Source of the DNA: Patescibacteria group bacterium
GTDB taxonomy: Bacteria > Patescibacteriota > Patescibacteriia > UBA2591 > UBA6264
Assembly: GCA_021735685.1 (NCBI GenBank)
Contig: JAIPGN010000001.1
Coordinates: 202,678-266,677 of the forward strand
DNA: 64,000 nucleotides
Direction of reading: 5' to 3'
The notes beneath the pieces were generated by a model, which was not told the origin of the DNA, made no database searches, and saw only the letters and a program-made list of their open reading frames with translations. The position numbers and the translations under genes were made by a program. Each line of letters starts with the position of its first letter. The stretch's first letter is position 1. Of the stretch, positions 4,113 to 24,709 are shown piece by piece.

Positions 4113-5126
4113 CTAATAATTAGTTTTTTTAACTTTCAGTTTTTCGATCGGGTCTTCCTTAAAATATTCTGCCCCAAAAGCATAAAGAATTCCTAAAAAT
4201 ATTCCCAGAATGCCAGCAATGATAACATTTTGCTTTCGGTTTGGAGAAATTCTGGTTTCAGGAGCTGTGGCTGGAACTTCAACTTCTGTGGGTTTGGTTT
4301 GATAAACCCTCTCGTATTTTTTAGATTGAATTTGTTGTTCTAGGTTAACTAGTTTATGTTCCAAATTCAGTAGTTGAGATTCTTTGCTTTCTTTTTGGTT
4401 TTTGACTGTGGCTAAAAGATCAATATAGCTTTCGGCAATGCGGCCTTGGCCATCGCTGTAAGCGGCCGAACGGTTATTAATTTCTCTTTGATAATTTTCA
4501 ATATCGCTTTCTAGGCGAGTAATTTCTTCGTTAGTTTTAGTAATATTTTTTTCTGTTTTTTCTTTTTCGCTTACAATGGTAGCTAACTCGGTTTCGTAAT
4601 TTTTTTCTGCTTCACTAAAGATATTGTTGTGATAGGTAAGGAGAATGTCTGAGACTGCTTGCACCACGGTTACTGCTTGTTCTGGAGTATGAGCCCTTCC
4701 TTGAATTTCAATAAATTTAGAAAACTTGTCTTGGTTTTCGCCATTTTCATTTTCTTTGATGTCAAACATTTGAGCTACTTGATTAGTGGTGGCTCCTTCT
4801 GATAATGCTAAAGGTTCCTTAATTTTGTTTTTAACTTGTTGGAGAACGGTTTCTCGAGAAAAAACAGAGTTGATAGTATTAAGGCTTTGAATGGGATCTC
4901 CTTTAATTTTTCCGACTTCAATTAAGTTGCTAGCCTGAAAAACAGGAGTTATTAGAAGACTGATGATAATACTAAAGATTACAATCCCTCCAAAAATACT
5001 GGCAATTTGCCATTTTCTCTTGCAAAGGACTTTAATATAATCTCGTAAGTCAATTTCATCTTCTTCTGAATAATGATGTTCTTCTAAGATTTTTTCTTCT
5101 TGGCTTTGATATTCGTTGTTTTCCAT
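4113..5126 (-). CDS. Polysaccharide co-polymerase / chain-length determinant (Wzz-like)
   Basis: N-terminal Wzz-type motif (IDLRDYIKVLCKRKWQI followed by a TM), a long coiled-coil periplasmic region and a C-terminal TM (IIAGILGIFLGILYAFGAEYF). Confidence 0.55.
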   Translation of the reverse strand: MENNEYQSQEEKILEEHHYSEEDEIDLRDYIKVLCKRKWQIASIFGGIVIFSIIISLLITPVFQASNLIEVGKIKGDPIQSLNTINSVFSRETVLQQVKNKIKEPLALSEGATTNQVAQMFDIKENENGENQDKFSKFIEIQGRAHTPEQAVTVVQAVSDILLTYHNNIFSEAEKNYETELATIVSEKEKTEKNITKTNEEITRLESDIENYQREINNRSAAYSDGQGRIAESYIDLLATVKNQKESKESQLLNLEHKLVNLEQQIQSKKYERVYQTKPTEVEVPATAPETRISPNRKQNVIIAGILGIFLGILYAFGAEYFKEDPIEKLKVKKTNY

Positions 5127-5149
5127 ATTATTTGTGTTTTAAATTTTAT

Positions 5150-5482
5150 TTAAAAATTGCGACGGGCGGCAAAATTAAATGCATAAAAATATTTTTGCCA
5201 CAATTGGTCGGAAGATTCAAATTGATTATTAAATTGGAAGTAATCTATTAAGGCCTCCCGCAATCGAGTTAATTCTTTTAATCGTTTTTTATTTTTAAAA
5301 TCTTGAATGGTAAGACTTAAGAGCTCTAGCCCACGCACAAAGGCTTTTTCGCTATAATCATTCTTATTTTTATTTTTCCAGTTAATCGTTCTTTCTATTT
5401 CACTGCCAACATTAGCCATTTGTTCTATGAAAGGAATTTTTTCCCAGCGGCCGGAAGCTAAACTTTGGTGTTGTGGCTTCAT
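5150..5482 (-). CDS. Hypothetical helical protein (possibly HEPN or four-helix-bundle-like)
   Basis: Real ORF of 110 aa. Its ATG overlaps (ATGA) the stop of a frameshifted upstream reading frame. No diagnostic motif was recognised. Confidence 0.35.
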   Translation of the reverse strand: MKPQHQSLASGRWEKIPFIEQMANVGSEIERTINWKNKNKNDYSEKAFVRGLELLSLTIQDFKNKKRLKELTRLREALIDYFQFNNQFESSDQLWQKYFYAFNFAARRNF

Positions 5483-5757
5483 TTTTCAATAATATTATTT
5501 ACTATTTCAATAATTGATTTTTGAATTTGAGAATCATTTACTCCTCGGCTTCTATTTCCCTGAGATGGCCGGAAGTTAATCATAGAGTCAAATTCAATCA
5601 TTTTCTGGCCTTGGTCATATGGATAGATATTTATTCCCCAAAGATTGTTTTGCTTTGACCCATTTTCTGCAATTCTTGAATTGATATTTTGTCTTTAATA
5701 ATTTTCATAAATTGATTTTGATTTCTTGATTTAATTTAACAAAAAAAGAGACTTTTG

Positions 5758-6465
5758 TCAATTTACGATTTGCCCATAAATTAAACCAAGATACTCGTGA
5801 ATAGCTAAATCTACGTTTCTTAAATTTTGAGCGCAAGGAAAAAAATCTAGGAGATCATATTTTTCTTTTTGAACTTTAAAATCAGCTGGAACTGGAAAAG
5901 GGGATAGACCTTGTTGGTGAAAAAGGAAAACCGAACGAGGGAGATGATAGGCAGAAGTGATTAAATAAAAGCATTGATCTTTTAGTATTTCTTTCAAATT
6001 TTGTGCACTTTCTCCAGTAGTGCGTGATTTATTTTCTAAAATTATTTTATCAGGATCAAGGCCTTGACTGATTAGATGATTTTTTAATTTCAAGGCTTGG
6101 GTATCTTCGGGGTTTAAAAAGTATTGACCACTAACGATTATTTTTGTTTCTGGCTTAAGGTTAGCTATTCTTGTCGCTTCTGTGGCCCGCAGGCGGTCGC
6201 TTTCCGCTCCGCCCAGTAAAATTACAGCTTGAGTTATTTCTTTGGGCAGAGGCCCTTCTAGGGCCGAGAATTGATTTTCTAGGGGGGCGATAATAGTATC
6301 TGGAAAGGGAGTAATACTAAAGAGATAATAGATAATTAATCCTAAAATTAAAAGTCTAGTTCCTCTTTTTTTCTTTTTTAAAAGCAATAAAAACCCGAGA
6401 AGGGTAATTAAAAGGATAAAAACACTGGGTGTTAAAAATTGTTGAATAACTTTAAACCAAATCAT
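5758..6465 (-). CDS. DUF218 (YdcF/ElyC/SanA family) membrane-anchored protein
   Basis: N-terminal TM, then ILLGGAE...IVSGQ and a TSAYHLPRS motif that matches the DUF218 TSxYHMPR signature. Confidence 0.7.
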   Translation of the reverse strand: MIWFKVIQQFLTPSVFILLITLLGFLLLLKKKKRGTRLLILGLIIYYLFSITPFPDTIIAPLENQFSALEGPLPKEITQAVILLGGAESDRLRATEATRIANLKPETKIIVSGQYFLNPEDTQALKLKNHLISQGLDPDKIILENKSRTTGESAQNLKEILKDQCFYLITSAYHLPRSVFLFHQQGLSPFPVPADFKVQKEKYDLLDFFPCAQNLRNVDLAIHEYLGLIYGQIVN

Positions 6466-7064: not shown

Positions 7065-7066
7065 TT

Positions 7067-7657: not shown

Positions 7658-7667
7658 TTCGATTTTA

Positions 7668-7772: not shown

Positions 7773-8207
7773 TTAAAACAATTCTTTTTTATGCTTTATT
7801 ACAAAATCTCTCTGCTCTTTAATCATCTTCTGAGGCATGTCTTTAAATACCTTGTATTTCTTGTTCTTGCTATTTAATGGGTTCTCATCTTTTGATCTCA
7901 CCAAGAAAGCAATGCCCACGGGTTGGTCAAAATATTCAGGAAAATCATATTCAATCACTCCGATCATTTTTTCAACTTCTATATCTTCTTCCATCTCTTC
8001 TTGAGCTAATCTTTTTACTGCTTTTTCCAGGTTTTCTCCTTTTAGCACGGTTCCCCCGGGAATATGCCATTTGCCAATAGCTGGGGGAATCTCTCTTTTA
8101 GTTAAAGCTATTCCTTTATTGGTTGATAAAATTACCTCAACGCAAAGTCGAGGCACTGTGGAATAGATCTTTTTATATTCTTTAAATGGTAGTTTTTTTA
8201 TTTTCAT
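7773..8207 (-). CDS. NUDIX hydrolase
   Basis: Nudix box-like GGTVLKGENLEKAVKRLAQEEMEED; size 144 aa. Confidence 0.6.
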   Translation of the reverse strand: MKIKKLPFKEYKKIYSTVPRLCVEVILSTNKGIALTKREIPPAIGKWHIPGGTVLKGENLEKAVKRLAQEEMEEDIEVEKMIGVIEYDFPEYFDQPVGIAFLVRSKDENPLNSKNKKYKVFKDMPQKMIKEQRDFVIKHKKELF

Positions 8208-10105
8208 TTTATTTCTAACAGTCCCTTTATTTTTTCTTTATTCATCTCTGATAAAGCTTGTTCAAATTCTTTTAAGATTATTTGAATATCGTCTCCATTT
8301 TTTTCTAAATGAGAGATAAATATTTTTTCATGCTTGGTTGGCGATTCTTTTTCAGTAATAATTTCTTCAAACAATTTTTCCCCCGGCCGAATGCCAGCAA
8401 AAACAATGGGAATGTCAATATCCGGCTTATAACCAGCCAAACGAATCATTTCTTTAGCTAAATCTAATATTTTTACTGGTTGACCCATATCCAGCACAAA
8501 AACCTCTCCATCTTGGCCAATGGCTCCAGCCTGCATAATCAAAAGACAAGCTTCAGCAGTAATCATAAAATATCTTTTCATTTCGGGGTCAGTCACTTCT
8601 ACGGGGCCTCCTTTTTCAATTTGTCTTTGGAAAATAGGGACGACACTGCCTTGACTGCCCAAAACATTACCAAATCTAACTGCGCAAAAACGAGTTGGAA
8701 TTTTTTGTGAGCGGGCTTTTTGATTAAGCCAAACGCAAACTTTTTCCGCCATTCTTTTGCTAGCCCCCATAATAGAAGTTGGATTAATAGCTTTATCTGT
8801 CGAGACCATAACAAATTTTTTGACTTTATGTTTCAAGGAAGCCTCTCCTGTATTAAGAGTTCCTAAAATATTGTTGCGCACGGCTTCATCAGGGTCGTCT
8901 TCCATCATCGGCACGTGCTTGTAGGCGGCCGCATGAAAAACTACATCTGGTTGGCATTTTTGAAAAAGGTGGTCAATTTTGTTCTGGTCACAGATATCAG
9001 CTAAAGCAAAGAATAAAGGATTTTCTGGAAAATTAGAATTTTTCCAAGCTTGATTAAGTTTCTTTTTTAGATAAAAAAGAGCGGTTTCTCTTTGATCTAA
9101 AGCAATTAATTGCCGGGGTTTAAATTTTAATATTTGTTCGCAAAGCACCGAGCCAATAGAGCCGGCTGCACCGGTCACTAAAATTCTTTTGTCGGTAACA
9201 TATTCTTTAATGGCTTGAGTATCTATTTGGACTGGCTCACGTCCCAATAAATCTTCAATAGATATCTCCCGTAGATTATTTAAACTGACTTTTTCTTCTA
9301 GAATTTCTTTAGTGCCGGGTAAGATTTTGATTTTCTTAATTTTAGCTTGCCGGGCTAATTCCACAGTCTTTCTAATGGTTGGGATAGGGGCAGAGGGCAT
9401 GGCAATAATTATTTCCGCAATTTCTCTTTGTTCAATGATTTCAGCTAATTGTTCAATAGTTCCTAAAACTTTAATTCCATGAATTAAAATTCCTTTTTTC
9501 ATCGGACTGTCATCAATAAAGCCTTCTAAAGAGTAGGGGGTCTGAGAATTAGCAATTAAATGCCGAGCTAATTTTTCTCCGGCTTCGCCGGCGCCAATAA
9601 TTAAAACTTTGTTTTTTTTGCCTTTTTCTTTTTTCCAGCTGTTTTTTAATCCGTGTAAATATATTCTTTTGGCAAAGCGCAAGCTGGCTGTAAAAAAGAA
9701 AGCCAAGGCTCCAGAAATAAAGACAATAGAACGGGGGAATCCTTTAAAAAGTTCATTTTCTTTTAAAACAAAAAGAATTGCTCCCAAAGAAGCAAATCCT
9801 AAAATTACAGCTCGTCCAACTTTCAAAATTTCGCGAATGCTAATAAAAGACCAAGAAATAGAATAAAGTCTTTCCAAAACAAAAAAGATAATAGTCAGAG
9901 GGACAGCCAAAGCAATGAATCCCTTAATCATTGTAAAGTATTCAGGCTTAATGTTTCCATCAAAACGAAGCAAAAATCCCAAAAAACAAGCTAAAGCAAT
10001 TAAAAGCACATCAAAGAACAGAAAGAAAGCCGTTCTTTTTAAGCTTGTTTTGTGAAATATCTTTTTTCTTGCTCCGTAGAATAATTTTGAATTATTTATT
10101 CTCAT
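8204..10105 (-). CDS. Membrane-anchored NDP-sugar 4,6-dehydratase/epimerase (CapD/PglF/WbpM family)
   Basis: Four N-terminal TM segments, two Rossmann sites (LIIGAGEAGEKLA and LVTGAAGSIGSVL) and a C-terminal polysaccharide-biosynthesis CapD-like domain. Confidence 0.85.
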   Translation of the reverse strand: MRINNSKLFYGARKKIFHKTSLKRTAFFLFFDVLLIALACFLGFLLRFDGNIKPEYFTMIKGFIALAVPLTIIFFVLERLYSISWSFISIREILKVGRAVILGFASLGAILFVLKENELFKGFPRSIVFISGALAFFFTASLRFAKRIYLHGLKNSWKKEKGKKNKVLIIGAGEAGEKLARHLIANSQTPYSLEGFIDDSPMKKGILIHGIKVLGTIEQLAEIIEQREIAEIIIAMPSAPIPTIRKTVELARQAKIKKIKILPGTKEILEEKVSLNNLREISIEDLLGREPVQIDTQAIKEYVTDKRILVTGAAGSIGSVLCEQILKFKPRQLIALDQRETALFYLKKKLNQAWKNSNFPENPLFFALADICDQNKIDHLFQKCQPDVVFHAAAYKHVPMMEDDPDEAVRNNILGTLNTGEASLKHKVKKFVMVSTDKAINPTSIMGASKRMAEKVCVWLNQKARSQKIPTRFCAVRFGNVLGSQGSVVPIFQRQIEKGGPVEVTDPEMKRYFMITAEACLLIMQAGAIGQDGEVFVLDMGQPVKILDLAKEMIRLAGYKPDIDIPIVFAGIRPGEKLFEEIITEKESPTKHEKIFISHLEKNGDDIQIILKEFEQALSEMNKEKIKGLLEIK

Positions 10106-10367
10106 AATAAAAATATTCTTTAAGTCGGCGTTTTAACAATCTTTGACCTTGGCTTGTTTTTAAATATTTTTCTCTACGTATAGCATCGTTTTTATTTAAG
10201 CAAGCTTCATAATGTATCAATTCCCATGGCCGGTATGGCTTGGTGGATTTAACTAATCCTTTATTGTGTTTTTCTAATCGTTCTTTTAAATTCGTAGTAT
10301 AACCAATATAGAGTTGGTTGTTATTTTTGCTTTGGATAACATAATTATAGAAAAACATAATTTTCAA
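10092..10367 (-). CDS. GIY-YIG nuclease domain protein
   Basis: YNYVIQS...LYIGYTTNLKERLEKHN...PWELIHYE is the canonical GIY-YIG motif, in a 91-aa protein. Confidence 0.8.
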   Translation of the reverse strand: MKIMFFYNYVIQSKNNNQLYIGYTTNLKERLEKHNKGLVKSTKPYRPWELIHYEACLNKNDAIRREKYLKTSQGQRLLKRRLKEYFYYENK

Positions 10368-10383
10368 AATTTCTCTACGGGGT

Positions 10384-11535
10384 TTACAAGCATTCTTTAA
10401 GATTTTTGACTATATATTTAATTTGCTTTTGAGTGAGGTTGTTGTAAAAGGGGAGGGCAATGGTTTGTTGGGAGATTTTTTCAGTTATCGGAAAGTCTCC
10501 TTTTTTGTATTGAAATTTTTTTCGATAGAGAGGTTGAAGGTGGATGGGTTGGAAATAATTACTACAGGCAATTCCTTTAGCTCTTAGTTTTTTTAAAATT
10601 TGGTCGCGATTTTTCTTAATTTGAACCACATAAACAAACCAAGAAATTTTAGCTTGAGGATTACGATAGGGGATTTGAATCTCGGGAATGTTCTTTAATT
10701 CTTGATCATACATTTTAGCCACTTTCTCTCTCTTTTTTAATATTTCTTGGAGACGAGAGAGTTGGGTTAATCCCAGGGCAGCGTTAATATCGCTCATGCG
10801 ATAATTGTAGCCTAAATAAAAATGTTCAAGCCATTTGCCATTTTCTACCTTTCTTCCTTGATTCATTAAGGCTCGGCAATGGTCGGCTATTTTTTTATTA
10901 TTAGTTACAATCAAGCCCCCTTCGCCAGTGGTTATTTGTTTATTGGGGTAAAAAGCAAAAGTGGCTGCATCTCCAAAGCTTCCACATTTACGCCAAGGGG
11001 ATTGTTTCCGAACGGGGACTGCTCCCGATTTATACTCTGCTCCGATAGCCTCGCAAGAATCTTCAATTATTTTCAAATTATACTTCTTGGCGATTTTTGA
11101 AATTTTGTCCCAGTCAGCTGGAAAGCCAAAAACATCTACAATGACCATAGCTTTTAGTTTTTTCCTCTTTTCAGCAGGCAGATTGGTGATTGTTTTTTCT
11201 ATTTTACCAGGATCAATATTCAGCGTTAAGGGATCAATATCCACAAAAATTGGTTTAGCTTTTTCGTATAAAATGCAGTTAGCAGAGGCAATGAAAGAAA
11301 AAGGCGTAGTGATTACTCCATCGCCCTCTTTAATTCCTATTGATTTAATTAATAAATGAAGAGCAGAAGTGCCCGAATTAACTGCTATCGCATATTTGGC
11401 CCCAATATATTGGGCAAATTTTTCTTCAAATTCTTTTAGTTTGGGGCCCAAAGCTAAATTGGGCGTTTTTAAAACATCTAAAACCGCTTTTCTCTCTTTT
11501 TCTGTTATATCTGGATTTGATAAGGGAATTTTCAT
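10384..11535 (-). CDS. DegT/DnrJ/EryC1/StrS family PLP-dependent sugar aminotransferase
   Basis: NSGTSALHL and DVFG motifs are present, and SFGDAATFAFYPNKQITTGEGG contains the family's PLP-lysine region. Confidence 0.9.
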   Translation of the reverse strand: MKIPLSNPDITEKERKAVLDVLKTPNLALGPKLKEFEEKFAQYIGAKYAIAVNSGTSALHLLIKSIGIKEGDGVITTPFSFIASANCILYEKAKPIFVDIDPLTLNIDPGKIEKTITNLPAEKRKKLKAMVIVDVFGFPADWDKISKIAKKYNLKIIEDSCEAIGAEYKSGAVPVRKQSPWRKCGSFGDAATFAFYPNKQITTGEGGLIVTNNKKIADHCRALMNQGRKVENGKWLEHFYLGYNYRMSDINAALGLTQLSRLQEILKKREKVAKMYDQELKNIPEIQIPYRNPQAKISWFVYVVQIKKNRDQILKKLRAKGIACSNYFQPIHLQPLYRKKFQYKKGDFPITEKISQQTIALPFYNNLTQKQIKYIVKNLKECL

Positions 11536-11617: not shown

Positions 11618-11620
11618 ATA

Positions 11621-11715: not shown

Positions 11716-12207
11716 TTAATTTATGTTTTCTTCCATACTGCTACCATGCAAAATGCGTTTACCGTTTTTTTTGTCGATTTTCCAATAAGGGATAACGCTC
11801 CAGAAATATTTTTCTCCACCAGCCACGTTTTTAATTATAATTTTCAAGCGAATATTGTCTAGAACGGCAATAAATTCATAAAATGTGACATCTTTTAAAA
11901 TTTTTTTCCATTTTCCATTTGTTTTTTGTTGTTCAAATCGTTTAGTTTGCCAGATGCCTTGTAAGGTGTGAGAATTTTTTAGAACCTGTGGAACAAAAGG
12001 CAAAAGTTTTAATCGGGGATATTGATCAATTTGTGGTCTAGCCTGTTGATCTGTCTTGAACTTTAAGTGTCTTAATCCTTTTGCATTGAAAGCGATTTTT
12101 TCTTTAAAATAAGGGCATTTAATGTTATTTATTCTTTTATAAAAATTTTCAGCATCTTTTCTTATTTGGTCAAAATCATCTTTATTTTTAAGGTTAAATT
12201 TCCCCAT
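11716..12207 (-). CDS. Hypothetical protein
   Basis: 163-aa ORF within the glycan locus with no recognisable motif. Confidence 0.4.
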   Translation of the reverse strand: MGKFNLKNKDDFDQIRKDAENFYKRINNIKCPYFKEKIAFNAKGLRHLKFKTDQQARPQIDQYPRLKLLPFVPQVLKNSHTLQGIWQTKRFEQQKTNGKWKKILKDVTFYEFIAVLDNIRLKIIIKNVAGGEKYFWSVIPYWKIDKKNGKRILHGSSMEENIN

Positions 12208-17405: not shown

Positions 17406-18645
17406 TTTTTTTGTTTTCTATATTAGATAATTTAATACTTAACCCTAGCACGAGAGCGGTGGTGGGCATAAATAGAACTTCGTGAGAGGTAAGGCCACGA
17501 ACCAGGATCATAACGACGGACAAGAGAAAAATCGATGCATATTTATCCTCTTCAATCTCTTTTTTTGCGAGGCGATACTTGTTAAGAGAATTAATAATAA
17601 GAGTTATCATCAAAATAATAACTATAAAACCACTTAAACCTAACTCTGATAATAAAGTTAAATAAATACAATGGGTGTCAAGAAGATCAAATCTTTTTTC
17701 TATTTGCGGGTTATTATTTTTATAATTAACATATCGACCTGAGCTTATTCCTAATAATGGTTTTTTTTGAAATATTATTATTGTTTTTTTAATTTGCGTC
17801 GACCTTCCAGATAAACTTCCGTCATTCATGAGTTCATCTTTTACAAAAATACCGCTGATTCGTTCTTTTATTTTATTAATTGTTGAGGGATTTGAATTTA
17901 TGCCATAAGATAGGCACGCAACCAGTAATATAAGCGTAAAGATTATATGTTTTTTATTTTTAGATAATAAAAAAATGCAAACAATGGATGTAGCCATTAT
18001 TAACCACGCAAATCTGCTCACGGTTAATATTTGAGCCGAGGATATAATTATAAAAATAATAACCCAAAATATTTTTTGTTTTTTTCTCTTTGCAAAAATA
18101 AATAAAAAGGCAAGAGCAAAAGGATAAACGCCGACAGTCCAATTGCTTAGAGAATTTTTGGTGGCGAATGAAAATGGATTCACGTAAAATTTTATTGCTC
18201 CGCAAAAGTATTTAACAAGACCATATAGGCAAATAATACTTACGGCTATAGTTGTGGCCTTTATCACAACAATTACATCTTGTCGGTTTTTGAGCGTAGC
18301 AGCTATAAGAAGGGTTGTGCAAAAAAAGCTTGACCATTTTATTAAAGCATTCATATTAAATGTTCCGTTGGCCAAAAAAGAAGAGAGTATGATAGTTAAA
18401 AAAACGCAAAAAATTAATAAGTATTTTTTTAACCCCTTAAAAGATAGTAGATTGAATGGCAGAGATAGGAGAAATATTATAGGCATTAATAAAAATGCCG
18501 GGTGCACCGACGTGTCTAAGATATTTATTCTTAGTTTCTGCCATAAGGAAAATATCAAGAGTAAAGAAAATAAACACCAAAGCTTCCCCATTAGTGTCAA
18601 AGGTTCCTTTTTTTGCTTGCTACTGTTATAAGTTAAATGATTCAT
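17398..18645 (-). CDS. O-antigen ligase/polymerase-like membrane protein (Wzy_C family)
   Basis: About 10 TM segments and LTVSRFAWL (Wzy_C SRgawl motif). Confidence 0.55.
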   Translation of the reverse strand: MNHLTYNSSKQKKEPLTLMGKLWCLFSLLLIFSLWQKLRINILDTSVHPAFLLMPIIFLLSLPFNLLSFKGLKKYLLIFCVFLTIILSSFLANGTFNMNALIKWSSFFCTTLLIAATLKNRQDVIVVIKATTIAVSIICLYGLVKYFCGAIKFYVNPFSFATKNSLSNWTVGVYPFALAFLFIFAKRKKQKIFWVIIFIIISSAQILTVSRFAWLIMATSIVCIFLLSKNKKHIIFTLILLVACLSYGINSNPSTINKIKERISGIFVKDELMNDGSLSGRSTQIKKTIIIFQKKPLLGISSGRYVNYKNNNPQIEKRFDLLDTHCIYLTLLSELGLSGFIVIILMITLIINSLNKYRLAKKEIEEDKYASIFLLSVVMILVRGLTSHEVLFMPTTALVLGLSIKLSNIENKKNE

Positions 18646-19660
18646 TGATAAATTTTAAAAGTGAACGGGCCATTTCTTCTTCGACTGTTAGGCTTTTTTT
18701 AATTTTGATCCAATTATTATTGTTTTTTGTATAGAAAAAGTCGGCATATAAGATAGTGTATATGCCAAAATATAATGCTTGAAATTCTATGAGATAACAT
18801 TTGTCTTTTTTTATTGCGACATCTAAGGACAAGTAAGGAGATTTTATCGTTTCGTTTATTTTGTGACAGAAATTTAGAAGGTTTTCTGGTGGAGTTTCAT
18901 AGGTAAATTTATAGCTACCGCTGGCCCTGAAGTCATTTTTTTTTACTCCTCGTTTTAGTGCATAGTAATGGTTACTATAAATAAGAATTTTCCAATCATT
19001 TTGAAGTCCAGGAACATATTCTTGTATTACGAATTTATTGGTGTTATTTCTGTAAATTCTCTCCTTATCTCTTATTCCCATCAAGTAAGCCAGCACTGCT
19101 CTTGCAGAGAAGAATGTCTTTTTAAATAATGAATCAAAAATAGAGGATATTTGTTTAGATTTTTTCTTTGCTTGTTTGTGGTTTTCAAGAAGGCAAACTT
19201 TTTTACTTCCGGAACCATCAGGGATTTTGAGCACCAAGGGAAATTTAAATTTTAGAATATTTTCCGAAAATTCTTTAAAGGAGCCGAAGGATTTGCCTTG
19301 TAGGTTGCCAAAATTTAGAATTTTTTTATAGATTTCTTGGAAACATTTATTGTGATGGGCTCTGAATAAATAGAAATTAGGGACCAGAACGCCGCCTTGT
19401 TTTTTTATTCCCAGAAGAATATCTTCTATATAATCTTTGTATTTACCTACCTCGCAGCTTGAATAGAGTACTATTTTATTATTGAAGTTGATTTTTTGAA
19501 AATTTATTTCAGAAAATTTAAGTATTTCGATTTCAATTCCGCTTTCCTTTAAGAGGTGAGCGAATTTATCTAGACTAAATTCATGTTTGTCCCATTCGGA
19601 GTAAAAGCGATTATCATAATCTAATAGAATATAAATTTTTTTTGTTACTTTGTTATCCAT
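18626..19660 (-). CDS. ATP-grasp domain protein
   Basis: PLVLKIPDGSGSKKV...FVIQEYVP...LSLDVAIKKDKCYLIEFQ shows ATP-grasp-like segment order. Confidence 0.45.
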   Translation of the reverse strand: MDNKVTKKIYILLDYDNRFYSEWDKHEFSLDKFAHLLKESGIEIEILKFSEINFQKINFNNKIVLYSSCEVGKYKDYIEDILLGIKKQGGVLVPNFYLFRAHHNKCFQEIYKKILNFGNLQGKSFGSFKEFSENILKFKFPLVLKIPDGSGSKKVCLLENHKQAKKKSKQISSIFDSLFKKTFFSARAVLAYLMGIRDKERIYRNNTNKFVIQEYVPGLQNDWKILIYSNHYYALKRGVKKNDFRASGSYKFTYETPPENLLNFCHKINETIKSPYLSLDVAIKKDKCYLIEFQALYFGIYTILYADFFYTKNNNNWIKIKKSLTVEEEMARSLLKFINESFNL

Positions 19661-20784
19661 CTTTTTATTTTTTTTAGTAATTTAATGGTTTTTTTAAAAA
19701 TTTTAGAAGGGAAAATTACGATTTGTGTTTTGAGGTTTTTTCTTTCCCCGAAGAAATATTTAAATGGTCTTTTAATAATAAATTCCCATAGATTGTATAT
19801 GCGCCAAAATAATTTATAATTCGTGGGTGAAAATTTTAATTTGTTAGATCTTTTTTTTATTATTTTCATCCAAATTATTTTTTTTTCTATTTTCGTCTCT
19901 ATATCTTTAATCGCTGTTGGAATAATTCTCACATTTTTTACCATGCTTTTGTTTTGAACGTCTATATCAATTAGGGCAACTCCACCATGCAATTGATCGT
20001 CGGTCCACAGTACCGGATCTTTCGCAATAACATCAGAGAAGGAGAAATTTCCTAAACTATATAATATATAACCATTTTTGTGTTTTTCTATTCCTTGCAA
20101 AGTGTGAGTGTGGTGTCCATAAATTATATTAGCGCCTGAATCTATTAATAAATGTGCTATATCTCGTTGTTGAGGTGTCGGGTAATGACTAAATTCTTTC
20201 CCCCAGTGAATAGACACTATAACCAAATTTTTCCCGTTATTGGACAGTTTTTTGATTCTTTCTGCTGTTTTTTTAGGTTCTGTTAAAAAATTAAGATACA
20301 TGTTGCCGTTTTTCGGTAGCGAAGGATGGGTGCCTGGAGTAGTATACGAGATTACTTTTATTGTTCTGTTTTTTAATCTTAGCTCAACTATTTTTTCCGC
20401 GTCTTTTTTCTTTAAACCAGCTCCTAGAAACAAGAAGCCATTAGAGTGCAGCCAATCTGTTGTTTTTATAAATCCTTCTTGTAGGTAATCAAATATATGA
20501 TTGTTGCCTATATTAACAATCTGCGGACGTAGGTGATTTAATAGTTTGGCGGTTTGTTGATTGGTATGCAGACTGGGTTCTTTTAGAGGGTTTTTATTTT
20601 TTGCTATTATAGGAGATTCTAGGTTTACAAGCAACAGATCAACCTTTTCTTGTCTTAGAAATTTTTTAATCCTGTAAAATGATTTTTGAGTTGGCTGAAA
20701 ATTTTTACTTATGCAATATTTATTATTTAAAGATATATCTCCTATAAGGGCTATCTTAAAAATTTCTTTATTTTTTTTTATCAT
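19645..20784 (-). CDS. CapA/PgsA family metallophosphoesterase
   Basis: IALIGDISL...VNLESP...NIGNNH...GHHTH follows the CapA-type calcineurin-like motif order. Confidence 0.65.
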   Translation of the reverse strand: MIKKNKEIFKIALIGDISLNNKYCISKNFQPTQKSFYRIKKFLRQEKVDLLLVNLESPIIAKNKNPLKEPSLHTNQQTAKLLNHLRPQIVNIGNNHIFDYLQEGFIKTTDWLHSNGFLFLGAGLKKKDAEKIVELRLKNRTIKVISYTTPGTHPSLPKNGNMYLNFLTEPKKTAERIKKLSNNGKNLVIVSIHWGKEFSHYPTPQQRDIAHLLIDSGANIIYGHHTHTLQGIEKHKNGYILYSLGNFSFSDVIAKDPVLWTDDQLHGGVALIDIDVQNKSMVKNVRIIPTAIKDIETKIEKKIIWMKIIKKRSNKLKFSPTNYKLFWRIYNLWEFIIKRPFKYFFGERKNLKTQIVIFPSKIFKKTIKLLKKIKRWITK

Positions 20785-21551
20785 TTGGTTAATTCGGTAA
20801 AATATTTTTTAAAATTTTCACGATTGCTTTCTTCTAAAAGATGGTAGTGTAGCTTGTGTTTTGATCTGGATTGGTTTGAAAAGATTGAGTTTATCATATC
20901 AGCGTATTTTTTGATAGATGATTTTTTTAGCTTAGTTTTGGAATTTTGTTCGTAACTTGAAATAAATAGATCGGCCATTTTTTTTCTTTTTAGATAATGT
21001 CTCCGTTTCGAGAAAATATTAGAATAAGGTGGCGACACAAAGATGGCATTTACAAAACAGAAAATATCCCAATAGATTGGCCCATGATTTATGCCTTGTC
21101 CCACAACTGGCGTTATATCCCAATCTAATATTATTAAATTGTAGCTTAAATCGTATTGAAGATTGTTAAGATTAAAGTCGCCATGTAGAAATGCGCAAGG
21201 GTCTTCTTTATCTGTATCAAAAAAATTCGAGAATTCTATTGCATTTTTGCTTGAAAGTGTCAAATTCTTATGAATAACCCCCAAAGATCTTCCTGCCATT
21301 TTGATGAGTTTTTCCATCTCTCCTTGTTTTGAATTTAAGAGATTTGATAACGGCTTGATATTTTTAATATACGTTGTTATAAGTATTCCTTTTTCTTTGT
21401 CTATTAATATTGTTTTTGGAATTTTGAACATTCCGCATTCACGAGAGAGTTGATAGGCTTTCTCGGTTTTTATGCCCTCAAGCGAGATTTCTTTTGGCAA
21501 ACCGGTTTTTACAATAATCTTATTTTTAATATCTATAGATTTATTTGTCAT
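20781..21551 (-). CDS. Kinase-like phosphotransferase (APH / choline-kinase fold)
   Basis: FLHGDFNLNNLQYD matches the HGDxxxxN catalytic loop and IILDWDI the Mg-binding Dxx motif. Confidence 0.5.
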   Translation of the reverse strand: MTNKSIDIKNKIIVKTGLPKEISLEGIKTEKAYQLSRECGMFKIPKTILIDKEKGILITTYIKNIKPLSNLLNSKQGEMEKLIKMAGRSLGVIHKNLTLSSKNAIEFSNFFDTDKEDPCAFLHGDFNLNNLQYDLSYNLIILDWDITPVVGQGINHGPIYWDIFCFVNAIFVSPPYSNIFSKRRHYLKRKKMADLFISSYEQNSKTKLKKSSIKKYADMINSIFSNQSRSKHKLHYHLLEESNRENFKKYFTELTK

Positions 21552-21563
21552 ACTTTAACGTTT

Positions 21564-22301
21564 TCATTGACTACATATAAAGATTACATTTCTACTGATA
21601 TATAGCAAAAATTTTAAATGAGAAAAGAAATATTCTATTTTCCGTATAGGGTTTATGGGGAGTATGGTTTTTTCTTTTATAATCGGCAATATTCCTATAT
21701 GATGAGTCTCTAATATTTTTAAGTCTGCTAAGGATAACATTTTTTTCACTTCGCCAATATTCATCGTATTTATCGTTTTTTGCCTTTTTAAAATTAAGTA
21801 ATAGAGGCGTATTATTATCGCAGAGGGGCTAAAGCGATTCATGTGAATATTAAAAACAATGAGACCGTTTGGTTTTAAAAGTTTTTTTAATTCAACTATG
21901 GTTTTATTTTTTAATTCTGGTTGCGCGTTGAGAAAAAAACGAAACGCCGTAATAAGGTCAAATTTTTCACAAAAAAGGGAATTTTCTTTGGTGAGATCAA
22001 TATTTAATAATTTAGTTTTTCTCAATTTTTTTTTCGCAACACTTAACATCTCCTGAGAGACATCAGCTCCGTAGGATATGTTTGTGTAAGGTTCAATCAA
22101 TTCGGTGATTCTGCCGGTACCGCAAGCAAAGTCTAAATAATCTATTTTTCTATTATTAAAATATTTACTTATTGTTTTTTTTAGTATTTTTTGCTCCCAT
22201 TTCCAAATCATTGATCTATAATTATATTCGGTAAAACTTTTAGCATATGACTTGCCTTTGCCGGGAGATTTATGAGATTCTCTATAATCAACGTTTTTCA
22301 T
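21564..22301 (-). CDS. Class I SAM-dependent methyltransferase
   Basis: LDFACGTGRITELI is motif I; size 245 aa. Confidence 0.8.
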   Translation of the reverse strand: MKNVDYRESHKSPGKGKSYAKSFTEYNYRSMIWKWEQKILKKTISKYFNNRKIDYLDFACGTGRITELIEPYTNISYGADVSQEMLSVAKKKLRKTKLLNIDLTKENSLFCEKFDLITAFRFFLNAQPELKNKTIVELKKLLKPNGLIVFNIHMNRFSPSAIIIRLYYLILKRQKTINTMNIGEVKKMLSLADLKILETHHIGILPIIKEKTILPINPIRKIEYFFSHLKFLLYISRNVIFICSQ

Positions 22302-22312
22302 AATTTATTTTA

Positions 22313-23758
22313 TTATTTTTTTAAAAGCCTTTCCAGCAAAGCGAGAACAGAAAAATAGATAGCACCTGATATTAAAATAACTACAATAATATGGATATTG
22401 TATTTTGATATAGCCATGATGGTCAGATACATAAAGGCGCTGGCCAGGATGGAATTAATAGCACGAATTGTAATTTTTTTGGTGATCGGTTTAACTATGG
22501 TATGTCTTTTTACAGCCATAAAATAACAAAACAACATTATCAACATAGAAACAAGGGTGGAGGTTGCTGCGCCGTATAAGCTGTATTTTGGGATAAGCAC
22601 AAAGTTTAAAATAATATTTAGTGCCGCCCCTATTAAAGCTATCCAGAATACTTTGATTTGCTGATCTAAGATAATCAATATTTCGTTATATGATCTTATT
22701 ATTAAAAGTAAGCTCCCCATGGGGATTAAAATTTTTAATGCTAAAATGGATGGACTAAAACTTGATCCGTAAATCAAATTTATTATATCGGGAGCTAGGA
22801 CTATTCCTCCCATCGACAGAGGGATAGCCATTAGTATGGCTATGCTGGTTCTATAGTCACATAATCTTTGCAGGTTTTTGAGATTTTTTTTAGATTTGCT
22901 GATCGCTGGATAAAAGCTTTGAGCAACAAGAGCTCCTGGGATTAATGCCATATCAATTAATCTGTAAGAAGCGTTGTACCAGCCTACTTCTGTTACTTGT
23001 TTCCAAATCCCCATCATAACGGAATCTACCTGGGTATATATTTTACTAAATATTGTAAAAAGCCCAACTGGCCATGCCATTATGAAAAAATTTTTCCAAA
23101 TTTGGTGATCAAACTTAATTTTTAATTTTATGACTTTAAAATTAAAAAACAATAAAAAAGATATTAATGCGATAGCGCTGGCGACGAAATAGCCGCGGCT
23201 TAGATTTAGCGCAGAGGGAGATTTTATTATTGTGATAAATCCAAAACCCGTTATTAGTGCGGATTGGAATATTTTTATTAGAGCTTCATATTGCATTTTT
23301 TCTCTTGCGCGTAGAAATGTGCAAGTCAATATGACAATATTGTTGAATGCGGTATAGAGCATCAGAAACCATATCATTGTTCTAGTGCCAGAATCATCGG
23401 TCGCAAAAAGTGAGAATGCAATTGTAAAGATGATGACTGAAAGACTTAATATAAGTTTTAGGCTTATTATTGAAGAAAAATTTTTTTCTTTCCCTTTATC
23501 TTGAGATAGCTCGCGAGTAGTTATTTTTTCTAAACCGAAATCGGAAAAAACTGCAAATAGAGAAACAAAGGCAAGGGCAAAATTGAATCTCCCGTATTCC
23601 GTTGCTCCTAATATGCGAGCTACATAGATAATTAGTAAAAATTTGAACGCTTTGCTAATTATTTCTGAAAAAGCTAACCAAAAGGTGTTTTTAATAATAG
23701 TTTGTTTGGTGTTTTTATTTTTAAGTAGAAATGACCTAAGTATTGATTTTATGTGCAT
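22313..23758 (-). CDS. Wzx-like oligosaccharide flippase (MOP superfamily)
   Basis: About 12-14 TM segments with polysaccharide-biosynthesis-protein layout, adjacent to an epimerase and glycosyltransferases. Confidence 0.7.
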   Translation of the reverse strand: MHIKSILRSFLLKNKNTKQTIIKNTFWLAFSEIISKAFKFLLIIYVARILGATEYGRFNFALAFVSLFAVFSDFGLEKITTRELSQDKGKEKNFSSIISLKLILSLSVIIFTIAFSLFATDDSGTRTMIWFLMLYTAFNNIVILTCTFLRAREKMQYEALIKIFQSALITGFGFITIIKSPSALNLSRGYFVASAIALISFLLFFNFKVIKLKIKFDHQIWKNFFIMAWPVGLFTIFSKIYTQVDSVMMGIWKQVTEVGWYNASYRLIDMALIPGALVAQSFYPAISKSKKNLKNLQRLCDYRTSIAILMAIPLSMGGIVLAPDIINLIYGSSFSPSILALKILIPMGSLLLIIRSYNEILIILDQQIKVFWIALIGAALNIILNFVLIPKYSLYGAATSTLVSMLIMLFCYFMAVKRHTIVKPITKKITIRAINSILASAFMYLTIMAISKYNIHIIVVILISGAIYFSVLALLERLLKK

Positions 23759-23761
23759 TTT

Positions 23762-24709
23762 TTAAGATTTTATGGATTCTTTGATCCATTTTACTGTTTT
23801 GTTAATTCCAATTTTTATGTCAATCAGCGGTTTGTATTTTATAAGTTTTTTTGCTTTTGATATATCAGCCAAAGAATGCTTTACATCACCATCTCTGTGT
23901 TTTTCGTAGACTGCTTCAATATTTTTAGAAAGTAATTGGTTGATATATTTTAATAAGTCATTCAAAGAAATTTTTTCCCCGCAGGCTATATTCATAACTT
24001 CTCCAGAAATATCTGAATGCATTGCCAAAATATTGGCATTAACTACATTGTCAACATAAGTAAAATCTCTTGATTGCTCTCCATCTCCATAAATTGTAGG
24101 TTGTCTATTGTCTAAGATAGATTTAATAAATATGGGTATTACTGCTGAGTATTCTGAATTTGGGTCTTGTTTTGGACCAAAAACATTAAAATATCTTAAG
24201 CAAATGGTTGGTAATTTATATAATTGAGCGAAAAGTTGACAATATCTTTCTCCCGCGAGTTTAGTTAGGGCATATGGAGATATTGGATTAATTGGATCAT
24301 TTTCTTGCTTGGGCAATTTTACAGAATCCCCGTATATAGAAGAAGATGAAGCATATACTAGTTTTTTAACATTCGCATCCCGAGCCGCAATTAGAACGTT
24401 TAATGTACCGTCTATATTTGCCTTATTACTTGCAAAGGGATTATTGATAGAGCGGGGGACAGAAGGAATAGCAGCTTCGTGAAACACAAAATCTATATTT
24501 TTAACAACTCCTTTAGTCGTTTTTGGATTACTAATATCTCCTTCAATTAGTTCGAAATTTTTGTTATTCAAGAATTCTTCGATATTTTCTTTTTTTCCTG
24601 TAGAAAAATTATCGACCACACGAACATAGTTGTTTGACTCTAATAATTTTTTTACAAGGTTGGAGCCAATAAATCCAGCTCCGCCCGTCACAAGGTATTT
24701 ATTTTTCAT
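23762..24709 (-). CDS. NAD-dependent NDP-sugar epimerase/dehydratase (SDR family; WbpP/GalE-like)
   Basis: YLVTGGAGFIGSNL and the YxxxK catalytic motif (YALTK). Confidence 0.9.
   Translation of the reverse strand: MKNKYLVTGGAGFIGSNLVKKLLESNNYVRVVDNFSTGKKENIEEFLNNKNFELIEGDISNPKTTKGVVKNIDFVFHEAAIPSVPRSINNPFASNKANIDGTLNVLIAARDANVKKLVYASSSSIYGDSVKLPKQENDPINPISPYALTKLAGERYCQLFAQLYKLPTICLRYFNVFGPKQDPNSEYSAVIPIFIKSILDNRQPTIYGDGEQSRDFTYVDNVVNANILAMHSDISGEVMNIACGEKISLNDLLKYINQLLSKNIEAVYEKHRDGDVKHSLADISKAKKLIKYKPLIDIKIGINKTVKWIKESIKS

What the first reader, a model, noticed from the sequence alone, without database searches (positions are those of the whole stretch)
4113..24709. Twenty-kilobase Wzx/Wzy-type glycan locus carrying a LicD, cytidylyltransferase and choline-kinase-like triad plus ATP-grasp and CapA genes
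Sixteen or more co-directional, mostly overlapping genes encode a full heteropolysaccharide pathway: Wzz, CapD dehydratase, DegT aminotransferase, WecA-like initiator, GT2, GT4, Wzy, Wzx and an SDR epimerase. Interleaved are a LicD phosphotransferase, a 147-aa HxGH cytidylyltransferase and an APH/choline-kinase-fold protein. Those three are the LicD, LicC-like and LicA logic used to add phosphocholine (or a similar phospho-alcohol) to surface glycans. A methyltransferase, an ATP-grasp ligase and a CapA metallophosphoesterase suggest further decoration, possibly amino-acid ligation. The 13.2-22.3 kb core is visibly more AT-rich and Lys-rich than its flanks, which suggests horizontal acquisition.
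Basis: partly seen in the sequence, partly recalled or inferred. Interest (0 to 1): 0.65.

Follow-up and report, generated by a model that had tools for sequence, protein, structure and literature searches.

The report
Mosaic surface-glycan locus, three decoration modules
This is a real but fairly ordinary surface-polysaccharide gene cluster in a Patescibacteria bacterium; the proposed choline-kinase/cytidylyltransferase/LicD "triad" is not one unit, because comparison with about 100 other loci splits it into independently recurring gene cassettes, two of which I could not find described.

Summary
Twenty-two co-directional minus-strand ORFs (4113-24709) form a Wzx/Wzy-type glycan locus.

The core (13.2-22.3 kb) is 28.9% GC against 34.9% outside. 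GC3 is unchanged (0.26 vs 0.27), so the shift reflects Lys/Asn/Ile-rich proteins, not foreign codon usage.

The "LicA/LicC/LicD-like triad" is not supported as a unit.
- **LicD cassette.** It is contiguous in 63 of 70 evaluable loci across at least six phyla. None of the 80 loci carries the kinase.
- **Kinase pair.** The APH-fold kinase pairs with the methyltransferase next to Wzx. They are adjacent or fused in 13 of 17 other loci. Kinase::methyltransferase and Wzx::kinase fusions exist. No LicD or cytidylyltransferase lies nearby.
- **CapA + ATP-grasp.** These form a third recurring pair.

Most likely the cassette adds glycerol phosphate from CDP-glycerol, which has a biochemical precedent, and the kinase and methyltransferase modify the lipid-linked repeat unit. 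Phosphocholine is not excluded, but no evidence favours it.

The parts
23762..24709 (-). SDR sugar-nucleotide 4-epimerase, first gene of the tightly packed block. The best NCBIfam hit is the TviC-type UDP-GlcNAcA 4-epimerase, below its equivalog cut-off.
   Evidence: Pfam Epimerase 2e-65. NF011728 TviC 291 bits against a cut-off of 760.
22313..23758 (-). Wzx-type MOP flippase.
   Evidence: Pfam Polysacc_synt 3e-34. Wzx is fused to kinase-family domains in P0307 and P0342.
21564..22301 (-). Class I SAM-dependent methyltransferase, the conserved partner of the kinase (module B1).
   Evidence: Pfam Methyltransf_11/12/23/25. 49% identical to the methyltransferase next to the closest kinase homologue. 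36% identical over its full length to the methyltransferase domain of the kinase::methyltransferase fusion P0363.
20781..21551 (-). APH/choline-kinase-fold (eukaryotic-like kinase) phosphotransferase, 256 aa (module B1). Its substrate is unknown.
   Evidence: Single-sequence Pfam is not significant. There are 387 homologues by exhaustive phmmer. K15, E25, H123-G-D125, N130 and D143-W144 are invariant. 65 of 71 members hit PF01636. An AF2 model (pLDDT 95.3) matches MTR kinase, PsiK, AmiN and LicA by Foldseek at about 1e-6.
19645..20784 (-). CapA/PgsA-family (PGA_cap) metallophosphatase-fold protein (module B2).
   Evidence: Pfam PGA_cap 1.5e-55. The best solved relative is MslH, 5e-10. It lies adjacent to the ATP-grasp gene in L002, L100/L101 and L103.
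18626..19660 (-). ATP-grasp ligase of an unnamed family found in polysaccharide loci (module B2).
   Evidence: More than 250 homologues; some hit PF08443 RimK. The family profile hits the BacD L-amino-acid ligase at 3e-4. It sits next to Wzy or CapA in L002, L003 and L103.
17398..18645 (-). Wzy-type repeat-unit polymerase.
   Evidence: Pfam Wzy_C 2.5e-16.
16257..17405 (-). GT4 glycosyltransferase.
   Evidence: Pfam Glycos_transf_1 2e-38.
15404..16264 (-). GT2 glycosyltransferase, first gene of cassette A.
   Evidence: Pfam Glycos_transf_2 3e-24. It is the contiguous first gene of the four-gene cassette in 63 of 70 evaluable loci.
14892..15335 (-). HxGH-class cytidylyltransferase, TagD-like (cassette A).
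   Evidence: PF01467 2.5e-23. TIGR01518 103 bits (cut-off 165) and rfaE_dom_II 95 bits (cut-off 181). PDB hits: human ECT 5e-25, TagD 3e-22. 40% identical to TagD, with the K-x-K of TagD K44/K46 conserved across the cassette family.
14057..14881 (-). 'X': a 274-aa divergent CE4/NodB-like barrel with a basic amphipathic C-terminal helical hairpin (cassette A).
   Evidence: No Pfam or NCBIfam hit. The family is highly conserved, with 55% mean column identity and 42 invariant residues. An AF2 model (pLDDT 92.9) matches CE4 deacetylases by Foldseek at 9e-5, TM 0.4-0.55.
13216..14049 (-). LicD-family phosphotransferase that uses a CDP-alcohol donor (cassette A).
   Evidence: PF04991 1.7e-40. The PWDDDFD motif aligns with the FKRP catalytic motif.
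12273..13211 (-). WecA/MraY-family polyprenyl-phosphate HexNAc-1-phosphate transferase (the initiating enzyme).
   Evidence: PF00953 4e-33. TIGR02380 119 bits, below its cut-off.
11716..12207 (-). 163-aa ORF with a weak LPD3 match. It is probably an insertion and not a pathway gene.
   Evidence: PF18798 3.5e-5, below the gathering score. It is absent from the equivalent junction in L004.
10384..11535 (-). DegT/PseC/PglE-type sugar 4-aminotransferase.
   Evidence: PF01041 1e-120. TIGR03588 353 bits. A DegT homologue lies within 10 kb in 57 of 80 cassette loci.
8204..10105 (-). Membrane-anchored CapD/PglF-type UDP-HexNAc 4,6-dehydratase.
   Evidence: PF02719 3e-114.
7773..8207 (-). NUDIX hydrolase overlapping the CapD gene by 4 bp.
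   Evidence: PF00293 1.3e-10. Overlap.
5758..6465 (-). DUF218 (SanA/YdcF-like) protein.
   Evidence: PF02698 2.7e-26.
4113..5126 (-). Wzz-type chain-length determinant (PCP).
   Evidence: PF02706 3.7e-8.

Best explanation
The region is a Wzx/Wzy-dependent surface heteropolysaccharide locus of a Patescibacteria (CPR) bacterium. It combines a common backbone with three separable decoration modules.

Backbone (family assignments shown; chemistry inferred). A CapD/PglF-type dehydratase and a DegT aminotransferase make a UDP-4-amino-4,6-dideoxy-HexNAc. A WecA-like enzyme starts the repeat unit on polyprenyl phosphate. GT2 and GT4 extend it. Wzx flips it, Wzy polymerises it, and Wzz sets the chain length.

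Module A: GT2 - HxGH cytidylyltransferase - CE4-like X - LicD. The association is shown; the chemistry is inferred. The TagD-like enzyme makes a CDP-alcohol from a housekeeping phospho-alcohol, most likely sn-glycerol 3-phosphate, because no dedicated kinase or precursor gene travels with the cassette. LicD transfers the alcohol phosphate onto the sugar added by GT2. X, a membrane-peripheral CE4-like hydrolase, probably deacylates the lipid-linked intermediate.

Module B1: methyltransferase + APH-fold kinase, next to Wzx or fused to it. These probably act at the cytoplasmic face on the lipid-linked repeat unit. The result would be a phosphate plus a methyl group, possibly a methyl-phosphate as WbdD makes.

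Module B2: CapA-like metalloenzyme + ATP-grasp ligase. These probably add an amide-linked amino acid or amine substituent. The CapA-like enzyme would act as a phosphoesterase or as an MslH-like epimerase.

The kinase does not feed the LicD pathway.
For: - Domain assignments.
- Module A: the gene order GT2 - cytidylyltransferase - X - LicD recurs in Polaribacter and Bacillus. It is contiguous in 63 of 70 evaluable loci, and the other seven are rearranged variants. None of the 80 loci has the kinase family.
- TagD likeness: 40% identity, K44/K46 conserved.
[quoted passage not shown] The same gene pair occurs in the glycerol-phosphate capsules of N. meningitidis serogroups H and Z (PMC3647402).
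- X: CE4 fold. Its conserved basic amphipathic C-terminus is seen in the sequence.
- Module B1: the Wzx - methyltransferase - kinase order, fusion proteins, and the methyltransferase adjacent or fused in 13 of 17 other kinase loci.
- Module B2: the CapA - ATP-grasp pair in L002, L100/L101 and L103. The family profile hits L-amino-acid ligases, and CapA's nearest solved relative is the epimerase MslH.
Against: - No chemistry was tested.
- The cytidylyltransferase scores below the equivalog cut-offs for both TagD (103 of 165 bits) and RfaE domain II (95 of 181). It is also similar to human ethanolamine-phosphate cytidylyltransferase. The alcohol could therefore be something other than glycerol.
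- X matches CE4 only at fold level (TM 0.4-0.55; profile-to-sequence E 0.09). The canonical Asp-His-His motif could not be mapped. X might make the cytidylyltransferase's substrate rather than act on the glycan.
- Neither the kinase nor the methyltransferase shows specific similarity to WbdD.
- No uronic-acid dehydrogenase is in the locus to supply a carboxylate for the ATP-grasp enzyme.
- Many of the kinase contigs are short.
Confidence: 0.6

Rival explanations
1. The kinase acts like LicA on choline (or a similar amino alcohol) taken up from outside. The 147-aa enzyme makes the CDP-alcohol, and LicD puts phosphocholine on the glycan.
For: All three enzyme classes are present in one operon-like block. 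LicA (4r77) is among the top structural neighbours of the kinase model, at rank 7 with E 3e-6. Seven of 71 family members hit PF01633 Choline_kinase. HxGH cytidylyltransferases include the eukaryotic choline- and ethanolamine-phosphate enzymes.
Against: The kinase is six genes away from the cytidylyltransferase. None of the 80 cassette loci has the kinase, and none of the 17 other kinase loci has LicD or the cytidylyltransferase. The kinase is fused to Wzx or to the methyltransferase in other organisms. LicA is no closer than MTR kinase, PsiK, AmiN or PRPK. No LicB or choline transporter is in the window. The cytidylyltransferase keeps the TagD glycerol-phosphate lysines.
Confidence: 0.1
2. 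De novo phosphocholine synthesis. The kinase phosphorylates ethanolamine. The methyltransferase acts like a phosphoethanolamine N-methyltransferase. The cytidylyltransferase and LicD then install phosphocholine without any choline uptake.
For: This would explain the tight kinase-methyltransferase coupling and their presence in the same operon as the cytidylyltransferase and LicD. There are weak generic hits of the methyltransferase to a phosphoethanolamine N-methyltransferase (4iv8, E 4e-4) and to PmtA (30 bits).
Against: Those methyltransferase hits are no better than hits to many unrelated class I methyltransferases. Kinase-methyltransferase pairs occur without LicD or the cytidylyltransferase in every other locus examined, including 14-20 kb contigs. 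Wzx::kinase fusions point to a membrane-bound lipid-linked substrate.
Confidence: 0.06
3. The methyltransferase, kinase, CapA and ATP-grasp together build one soluble non-sugar substituent, such as a phosphorylated or methylated amino-acid derivative. This would be analogous to Campylobacter jejuni capsule amidation or O-methyl-phosphoramidate synthesis. The product would be attached to the repeat unit as a single group.
For: The four genes are contiguous in the window and in L100/L101. L095 has kinase - methyltransferase - CapA. L094 has a FemAB-like gene directly after the kinase and methyltransferase, and an ATP-grasp gene downstream.
Against: Methyltransferase-kinase pairs occur without CapA or the ATP-grasp gene (L006, L087). 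CapA - ATP-grasp pairs occur without the kinase or methyltransferase (L002, L103). The pairs therefore function independently.
Confidence: 0.15
4. The 13.2-22.3 kb core is a recently acquired foreign island. This would explain its low GC content.
For: GC is 28.9% against 34.9% outside, p = 3e-8. The modules are shared with distant phyla at 45-70% protein identity. An independent assembly of the same sample breaks at 12.25 kb and 24.78 kb.
Against: GC3 is the same as in the host genes (0.263 vs 0.272). The shift is in amino-acid composition. The right-hand assembly break is explained by a 110-nt repeat. No integrase, tRNA or flanking repeat bounds the core.
Confidence: 0.25

Closest known systems
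Actinobacillus pleuropneumoniae CpsB/CpsC and Neisseria meningitidis serogroup H/Z CshA/CshB and CszA/CszB (a glycerol-3-phosphate cytidylyltransferase with a LicD-family Gro3P transferase)
   Same: A small HxGH cytidylyltransferase lies next to a LicD-family protein in a surface-polysaccharide locus, with no dedicated kinase. The CDP-alcohol donor logic is the same.
   Different: Those systems are ABC-transporter (group 2) capsules in which the LicD protein builds a Gro3P linker or polymer. Here the pair is split by a CE4-like gene, is preceded by a GT2, and sits in a Wzx/Wzy repeat-unit locus. The substrate here is untested.
lic1 / lic locus of Haemophilus influenzae and Streptococcus pneumoniae (LicA, LicB, LicC, LicD)
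   Same: A LicD-family transferase is present. An APH/choline-kinase-fold protein is in the same operon-like block.
   Different: LicC is a GlmU/NTP_transferase-fold enzyme, not the HxGH class. No LicB was found. The kinase family is not co-conserved with LicD.
WbdD of E. coli O9a (bifunctional kinase + methyltransferase that caps the O-antigen with methyl phosphate; PMC3482155)
   Same: A kinase-fold enzyme and a class I methyltransferase are coupled in a glycan locus. Homologues here are fused into one polypeptide.
   Different: There is no detectable specific homology to WbdD. WbdD works in an ABC-transporter pathway as a chain terminator. Here the pair is linked to the Wzx flippase in a Wzy-dependent locus.
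PgsBCA/CapBCA poly-gamma-glutamate synthetase, and MslH (a CapA-family peptide epimerase)
   Same: The CapA/PGA_cap metallophosphatase-fold protein is present.
   Different: There is no PgsB (Mur-ligase type) or PgsC. The partner here is an ATP-grasp ligase, and the context is a heteropolysaccharide locus.
CE4 (NodB) polysaccharide and peptidoglycan deacetylases such as PdaC, BA0150 and SlCE4
   Same: The overall barrel fold of X.
   Different: Sequence similarity is marginal. The motif pattern differs (HD instead of DD; HExxYH). X also has an extra C-terminal amphipathic hairpin, is cytoplasmic with no signal peptide, and is strictly linked to the cytidylyltransferase and LicD.

Membership tests
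Lic phosphocholine pathway (LicA-LicB-LicC-LicD) | A LicD-family (PF04991) phosphotransferase with the catalytic DxD motif | tested here: met
   PF04991 1.7e-40. The PWDDDFD motif aligns to FKRP.
Lic phosphocholine pathway (LicA-LicB-LicC-LicD) | A choline kinase (LicA) functionally linked to LicC and LicD | tested here: not met
   The APH fold is confirmed. However, the kinase family is absent from all 80 cassette loci, and LicD and the cytidylyltransferase are absent from all 17 other kinase loci. Its conserved partners are the methyltransferase and Wzx.
Lic phosphocholine pathway (LicA-LicB-LicC-LicD) | A LicC-type (NTP_transferase fold) CTP:phosphocholine cytidylyltransferase | tested here: not met
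   The enzyme is the PF01467 HxGH class. That LicC belongs to the NTP_transferase fold is from my own knowledge.
Lic phosphocholine pathway (LicA-LicB-LicC-LicD) | A LicB choline permease | tested here: inconclusive
   None was found among the window ORFs scanned. The rest of the genome was not available.
CDP-glycerol / LicD glycerophosphotransferase pair (CpsB/CpsC type) | A TagD-family glycerol-3-phosphate cytidylyltransferase | tested here: inconclusive
   The best full-length solved match is TagD (3e-22; 40% identity; K44/K46 conserved). TIGR01518 scores 103 bits, below its cut-off of 165, and rfaE_dom_II scores nearly as well.
CDP-glycerol / LicD glycerophosphotransferase pair (CpsB/CpsC type) | A LicD-family transferase adjacent to the cytidylyltransferase, with no dedicated kinase | tested here: met
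   The cassette is contiguous in 63 of 70 evaluable loci, and no kinase is present in any of the 80.
CDP-glycerol / LicD glycerophosphotransferase pair (CpsB/CpsC type) | The product carries phosphodiester-linked glycerol | not testable with these tools
   This needs NMR or mass spectrometry of the glycan.
WbdD-type kinase/methyltransferase terminator | A coupled kinase and SAM-dependent methyltransferase | tested here: met
   The genes are adjacent in the window and adjacent or fused in 13 of 17 other loci. Fusions include P0308, P0333 and P0363.
WbdD-type kinase/methyltransferase terminator | Sequence or structural homology to WbdD, in an ABC-transporter pathway | tested here: not met
   WbdD is not among the PDB sequence hits or the top 50 Foldseek hits. 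The locus is Wzx/Wzy-type.
Poly-gamma-glutamate synthetase (PgsBCA) | CapA/PgsA together with PgsB and PgsC | tested here: not met
   PGA_cap is present. No Mur-ligase-type PgsB or PgsC is in the locus.
CE4 polysaccharide deacetylase (PF01522) | NodB barrel fold | tested here: met
   Foldseek hits to PdaC, BA0150 and SlCE4 at E 9e-5 to 5e-4, probability 1.0, TM 0.4-0.55.
CE4 polysaccharide deacetylase (PF01522) | A Pfam-level sequence match and the canonical Asp-His-His metal motifs | tested here: inconclusive
   The window protein has no Pfam hit. Only a few family members carry PF01522. The profile against PDB gives E 0.09.

The most novel reading that the evidence does not exclude
GT2 - cytidylyltransferase - CE4-like - LicD is an undescribed four-gene cassette that moves between phyla. 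In the species-level genome collection, 117 stretches encode a relative of X. The cassette would install a phospho-alcohol, together with a deacylation step, on the second sugar of repeat units that start with a 4-amino-4,6-dideoxy-HexNAc. That would give a zwitterionic surface motif. X would be a new family of cytoplasmic, membrane-peripheral CE4-like enzymes acting on lipid-linked glycans. In parallel, the Wzx-linked methyltransferase-kinase pair would be a Wzy-pathway counterpart of WbdD methyl-phosphate chemistry.
Probability: 0.3. Interest if true: 0.6.

Novelty: new variant of a known kind. Interest (0 to 1): 0.4.

Why it matters
Surface glycans of Patescibacteria (CPR), which live attached to host cells, are essentially uncharacterised. 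This locus predicts a decorated and possibly zwitterionic polysaccharide.

The comparison has a more general result. The annotation "LicD + cytidylyltransferase + kinase = phosphocholine" can be wrong when gene neighbourhoods are not checked.

Two recurring units emerged for which my literature searches found no description. The first is GT2 - cytidylyltransferase - CE4-like - LicD, which is abundant in gut Clostridia and marine Bacteroidota. The second is the Wzx-linked methyltransferase-kinase pair, which includes fusion proteins. Both are small and testable in cultivable organisms such as Bacillus sp. SCS-153A, Polaribacter and Winogradskyella. They would extend the known chemistry of non-sugar glycan substituents.

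Tried and rejected
- **Word-index search with the kinase:** it returned only the query itself. The exhaustive search was needed to find the family.
- **Locus scans with the broad kinase alignments A1 and A3:** both failed because no stretch was conserved enough. The five-sequence alignment A5 worked but gave only 14 loci, most of them short.
- **Specific WbdD homology for the kinase or methyltransferase:** not found. The WbdD comparison is therefore kept only as an analogy.
- **Profile of X against PDB sequences:** only E 0.09.
- **Plasmid search for X:** only distant partial haloarchaeal and Spirosoma hits annotated as hypothetical.
- **Literature searches:** queries for the cassette, for LicD in Patescibacteria, and for the kinase/methyltransferase/CapA/ATP-grasp combination found nothing relevant.
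- **Alternative junctions or strain variants around the locus:** only collinear fragments from the same sample were found. Serotype-like replacement could not be assessed.
- **Recent-transfer reading of the low GC:** downgraded because GC3 is unchanged.

Full report
**Source and layout**

The proteins match NCBI entries from a "Patescibacteria group bacterium" (locus tags K9K85_011xx) on a 268,542-bp contig. The window averages 33.8% GC. Housekeeping genes flank the locus: ftsK, a RodZ-like gene and recA on one side, and ileS on the other.

From 24709 down to 4113, all 22 ORFs are on the minus strand. From the epimerase (23762-24709) to the WecA-like gene (12273-13211), gaps are at most 68 bp, and six junctions overlap by 4-20 bp. 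An independent Logan assembly of run SRR12088349 gives exactly this 12.5-kb block as one contig.

**Checking the observation**

Pfam and NCBIfam confirm Wzz, DUF218, NUDIX, CapD/PglF-type dehydratase, DegT/PseC-type aminotransferase, WecA/MraY-family initiator, LicD, CTP_transf_like, GT2, GT4, Wzy_C, PGA_cap, a class I methyltransferase, Wzx and an SDR epimerase. The epimerase's best hit is TviC-type, below the equivalog cut-off.

*The kinase-like ORF (20781-21551).*
- On its own it scores only APH E 0.19.
- It has no word-index homologues, but an exhaustive phmmer search finds 387 relatives.
- In a 71-sequence alignment, K15, E25, H123-G-D125, N130 and D143-W144 are invariant.
- Sixty-five of the 71 members hit PF01636 and seven hit PF01633.
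- The family profile hits APH-type domains in the PDB.
- An AF2 model (pLDDT 95.3) matches MTR kinase, PsiK, LxmK, AmiN, LicA, PRPK/Bud32 and APHs, all at about 1e-6 to 1e-5 with TM 0.45-0.62.
- It is therefore an APH/ELK-fold kinase with no specific nearest neighbour.

*The ATP-grasp ORF (18626-19660).*
- It has more than 250 homologues, and some carry PF08443.
- Its family profile hits the L-amino-acid ligases BacD (3e-4) and BL00235.

*Composition.*
- The core is 28.9% GC, the rest of the locus 33.6% and the outside 34.9% (p = 3e-8).
- Lys is 14.5% in the core against 9.1% outside.
- GC3 is flat at 0.263, 0.284 and 0.272.
- The shift is therefore real but lies in the amino-acid composition. 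It is not evidence for recent transfer.

**The overlooked gene and cassette A**

The ORF between LicD and the cytidylyltransferase is a real gene. Its true start is at 14881, giving 274 aa (P0122). It belongs to a very conserved family: about 45% identity across phyla, 55% mean column identity and 42 invariant residues. It has no Pfam or NCBIfam hit.

Its AF2 model (pLDDT 92.9) is a divergent CE4/NodB-like barrel. The best matches are PdaC at 9e-5, BA0150 and SlCE4, with TM 0.4-0.55. The model adds a C-terminal helical hairpin that is basic and amphipathic in sequence. I call this protein X.

In Polaribacter ponticola and Bacillus sp. SCS-153A, X sits in the same order as in the window: GT2, a 145-150-aa CTP_transf_like gene, X, then LicD.

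A scan of one genome per GTDB species found 117 stretches that encode a relative of X. Eighty loci were retrieved, from Clostridia (many from gut), Bacteroidota, Campylobacterota, Fibrobacter, Sphaerochaeta and Alteromonadaceae. My HMM tally of these loci shows:
- 63 of 70 evaluable loci have the four genes contiguous and in the same order; the other seven are rearranged variants.
- 57 of 80 have a DegT homologue within 10 kb.
- None of the 80 (1.32 Mb) has a homologue of the window's kinase, and a generic APH-motif scan finds one candidate.

The Bacteroidota arrangement is GT2 - cytidylyltransferase - X - LicD - initiating transferase - DegT - CapD. The window matches it, except for the type of initiating transferase and an inserted 163-aa ORF.

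**What cassette A probably does**

The cytidylyltransferase has the HxGH motif (HIGH). Its best full-length solved match is TagD (3e-22, 40% identity), and it keeps the K-x-K that corresponds to TagD K44/K46. These lysines are conserved across 68 cassette orthologues. That K44/K46 bind the substrate phosphate is from my own knowledge.

It is below the equivalog cut-offs for both TagD and RfaE domain II. It also resembles ethanolamine-phosphate cytidylyltransferase. The substrate is therefore inferred, not shown.

Two points favour glycerol phosphate. No kinase or precursor gene travels with the cassette. [quoted passage not shown] The same gene pair occurs in the N. meningitidis H/Z capsule loci (PMC3647402).

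LicD keeps the catalytic DxD motif. The amphipathic tail of X suggests it works on the lipid-linked intermediate. Deacylation is the default guess for a CE4 fold, but its motifs are non-canonical.

**The kinase belongs elsewhere (module B1)**

The closest kinase homologues lie in the order Wzx - methyltransferase - kinase - Wzy (L006 and L087), as in the window.

Fusion proteins exist:
- Kinase::methyltransferase: P0308, P0333 and P0363.
- Wzx::kinase: P0307 and P0342.
- P0363 lies directly after a Wzx gene.

The window methyltransferase is 36% identical over its full length to the methyltransferase domain of P0363. It is 49% identical to the methyltransferase in L006.

Across 17 other kinase loci (119 kb), the methyltransferase is adjacent or fused in 13. 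None contains LicD, the cytidylyltransferase or X. This includes contigs of 14.5, 16.7, 18 and 20.5 kb.

Fusion to the flippase argues for a membrane-proximal, lipid-linked substrate rather than a soluble amino alcohol. The nearest functional analogy is WbdD (kinase + methyltransferase giving methyl phosphate; PMC3482155). No specific homology to WbdD was found.

**Module B2**

CapA and the ATP-grasp gene are adjacent, often overlapping, in the window, L002, L100/L101 and Winogradskyella algicola L103. The ATP-grasp gene also occurs alone next to Wzy or Wzx (L003, L008).

Kinase - methyltransferase - CapA - ATP-grasp is contiguous in L100/L101, and L095 has kinase - methyltransferase - CapA. 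In L100 a GT4 and a CapD homologue lie downstream, so parts of the window's wider 16.2-23.7 kb block recur in a high-GC organism. The two ORFs of L100 in the positions of Wzx and Wzy gave no Pfam hit.

CapA's only solved relative is the peptide epimerase MslH. A plausible but unproven role is amide ligation of an amino acid, with epimerisation or dephosphorylation. Two neighbouring contexts hint at amino-acid or carboxylate chemistry: MurA/MurB-like genes in L103 and a FemAB-like gene in L094.

**Verdict**

The locus is a genuine, mosaic Wzx/Wzy glycan locus. The "triad" is a coincidence of three separable modules.

Phosphocholine is not excluded, but nothing supports it beyond fold-level resemblance. 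No LicB-like gene is in the window.

What is new is the two or three conserved modules, especially the GT2 - cytidylyltransferase - CE4-like - LicD cassette. My literature searches found no description of them.

Noticed in passing
window 24740-24849 and 25905-26014: A 110-nt direct repeat (98% identical; absent elsewhere in the window) brackets a two-gene cassette. The cassette is a 148-aa ORF with no Pfam hit (24848-25294) and a wHTH + MNT-type nucleotidyltransferase (25295-25840). It looks like a HEPN/MNT-like toxin-antitoxin pair. The same 110 nt therefore lies upstream of both the glycan operon and the cassette. This explains why the Logan assembly breaks at about 24.78 and 25.9 kb.
   Followed up: partly
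window 11716-12207 and about 10105-10384: A 163-aa ORF with a weak LPD3 match (30% GC) separates DegT from the WecA-like gene. An 88-aa GIY-YIG ORF is called between DegT and CapD in the Logan contig. Both look like small insertions into the conserved CapD - DegT - initiator arrangement.
   Followed up: no
window 6462-7064 and 7067-7657: Two adjacent ORFs of unknown function sit inside the locus. One is 200 aa (26% GC) with weak DUF4269 (E 0.012) and DUF7277 (E 0.013) matches. The other is 196 aa with a weak Crp-type HTH match. They are probably not glycan enzymes.
   Followed up: no
window 31857-33860, 44388-45479, 45484-47046, 50284-50871: Further envelope genes lie outside the locus: a second Wzy_C/O-antigen-ligase-like protein with C-terminal TPR repeats, a GT4, MurJ and a PAP2 phosphatase.
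   Followed up: no
window 35232-36803 and 36812-38383: Two tandem paralogues of cofactor-independent phosphoglycerate mutase, 523 aa each, lie directly after enolase.
   Followed up: no
window 41651-43468: A SecD protein carries an inserted PPIC-type peptidyl-prolyl isomerase domain. SecF follows it.
   Followed up: no
window 57414-61001: A 1195-aa ORF has no Pfam hit. Its coding strand shows very strong purine skew (GC skew 0.32-0.39; AT skew up to 0.31).
   Followed up: no
window 50878-51026 (-) and 61391-62922: Two adjacent tRNA-Met(CAT) genes. Separately, an IS200-like Y1 transposase is followed by a methyltransferase in a 28-30% GC stretch.
   Followed up: no
L103 998-11032 (Winogradskyella algicola); L094 3903-6603: In L103 the CapA - ATP-grasp pair shares a locus with MurA-like and MurB-like genes and a sulfotransferase. 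In L094 a FemAB/GNAT-like gene directly follows the kinase and methyltransferase. Both hint at amino-acid or carboxylate decoration chemistry.
   Followed up: partly
L012, L075, L033, L072, L081, L085, L086: Several Clostridia loci carry a second LicD gene, and some a second cytidylyltransferase, a few kb downstream of the cassette. This suggests two different phospho-substituents per glycan.
   Followed up: no
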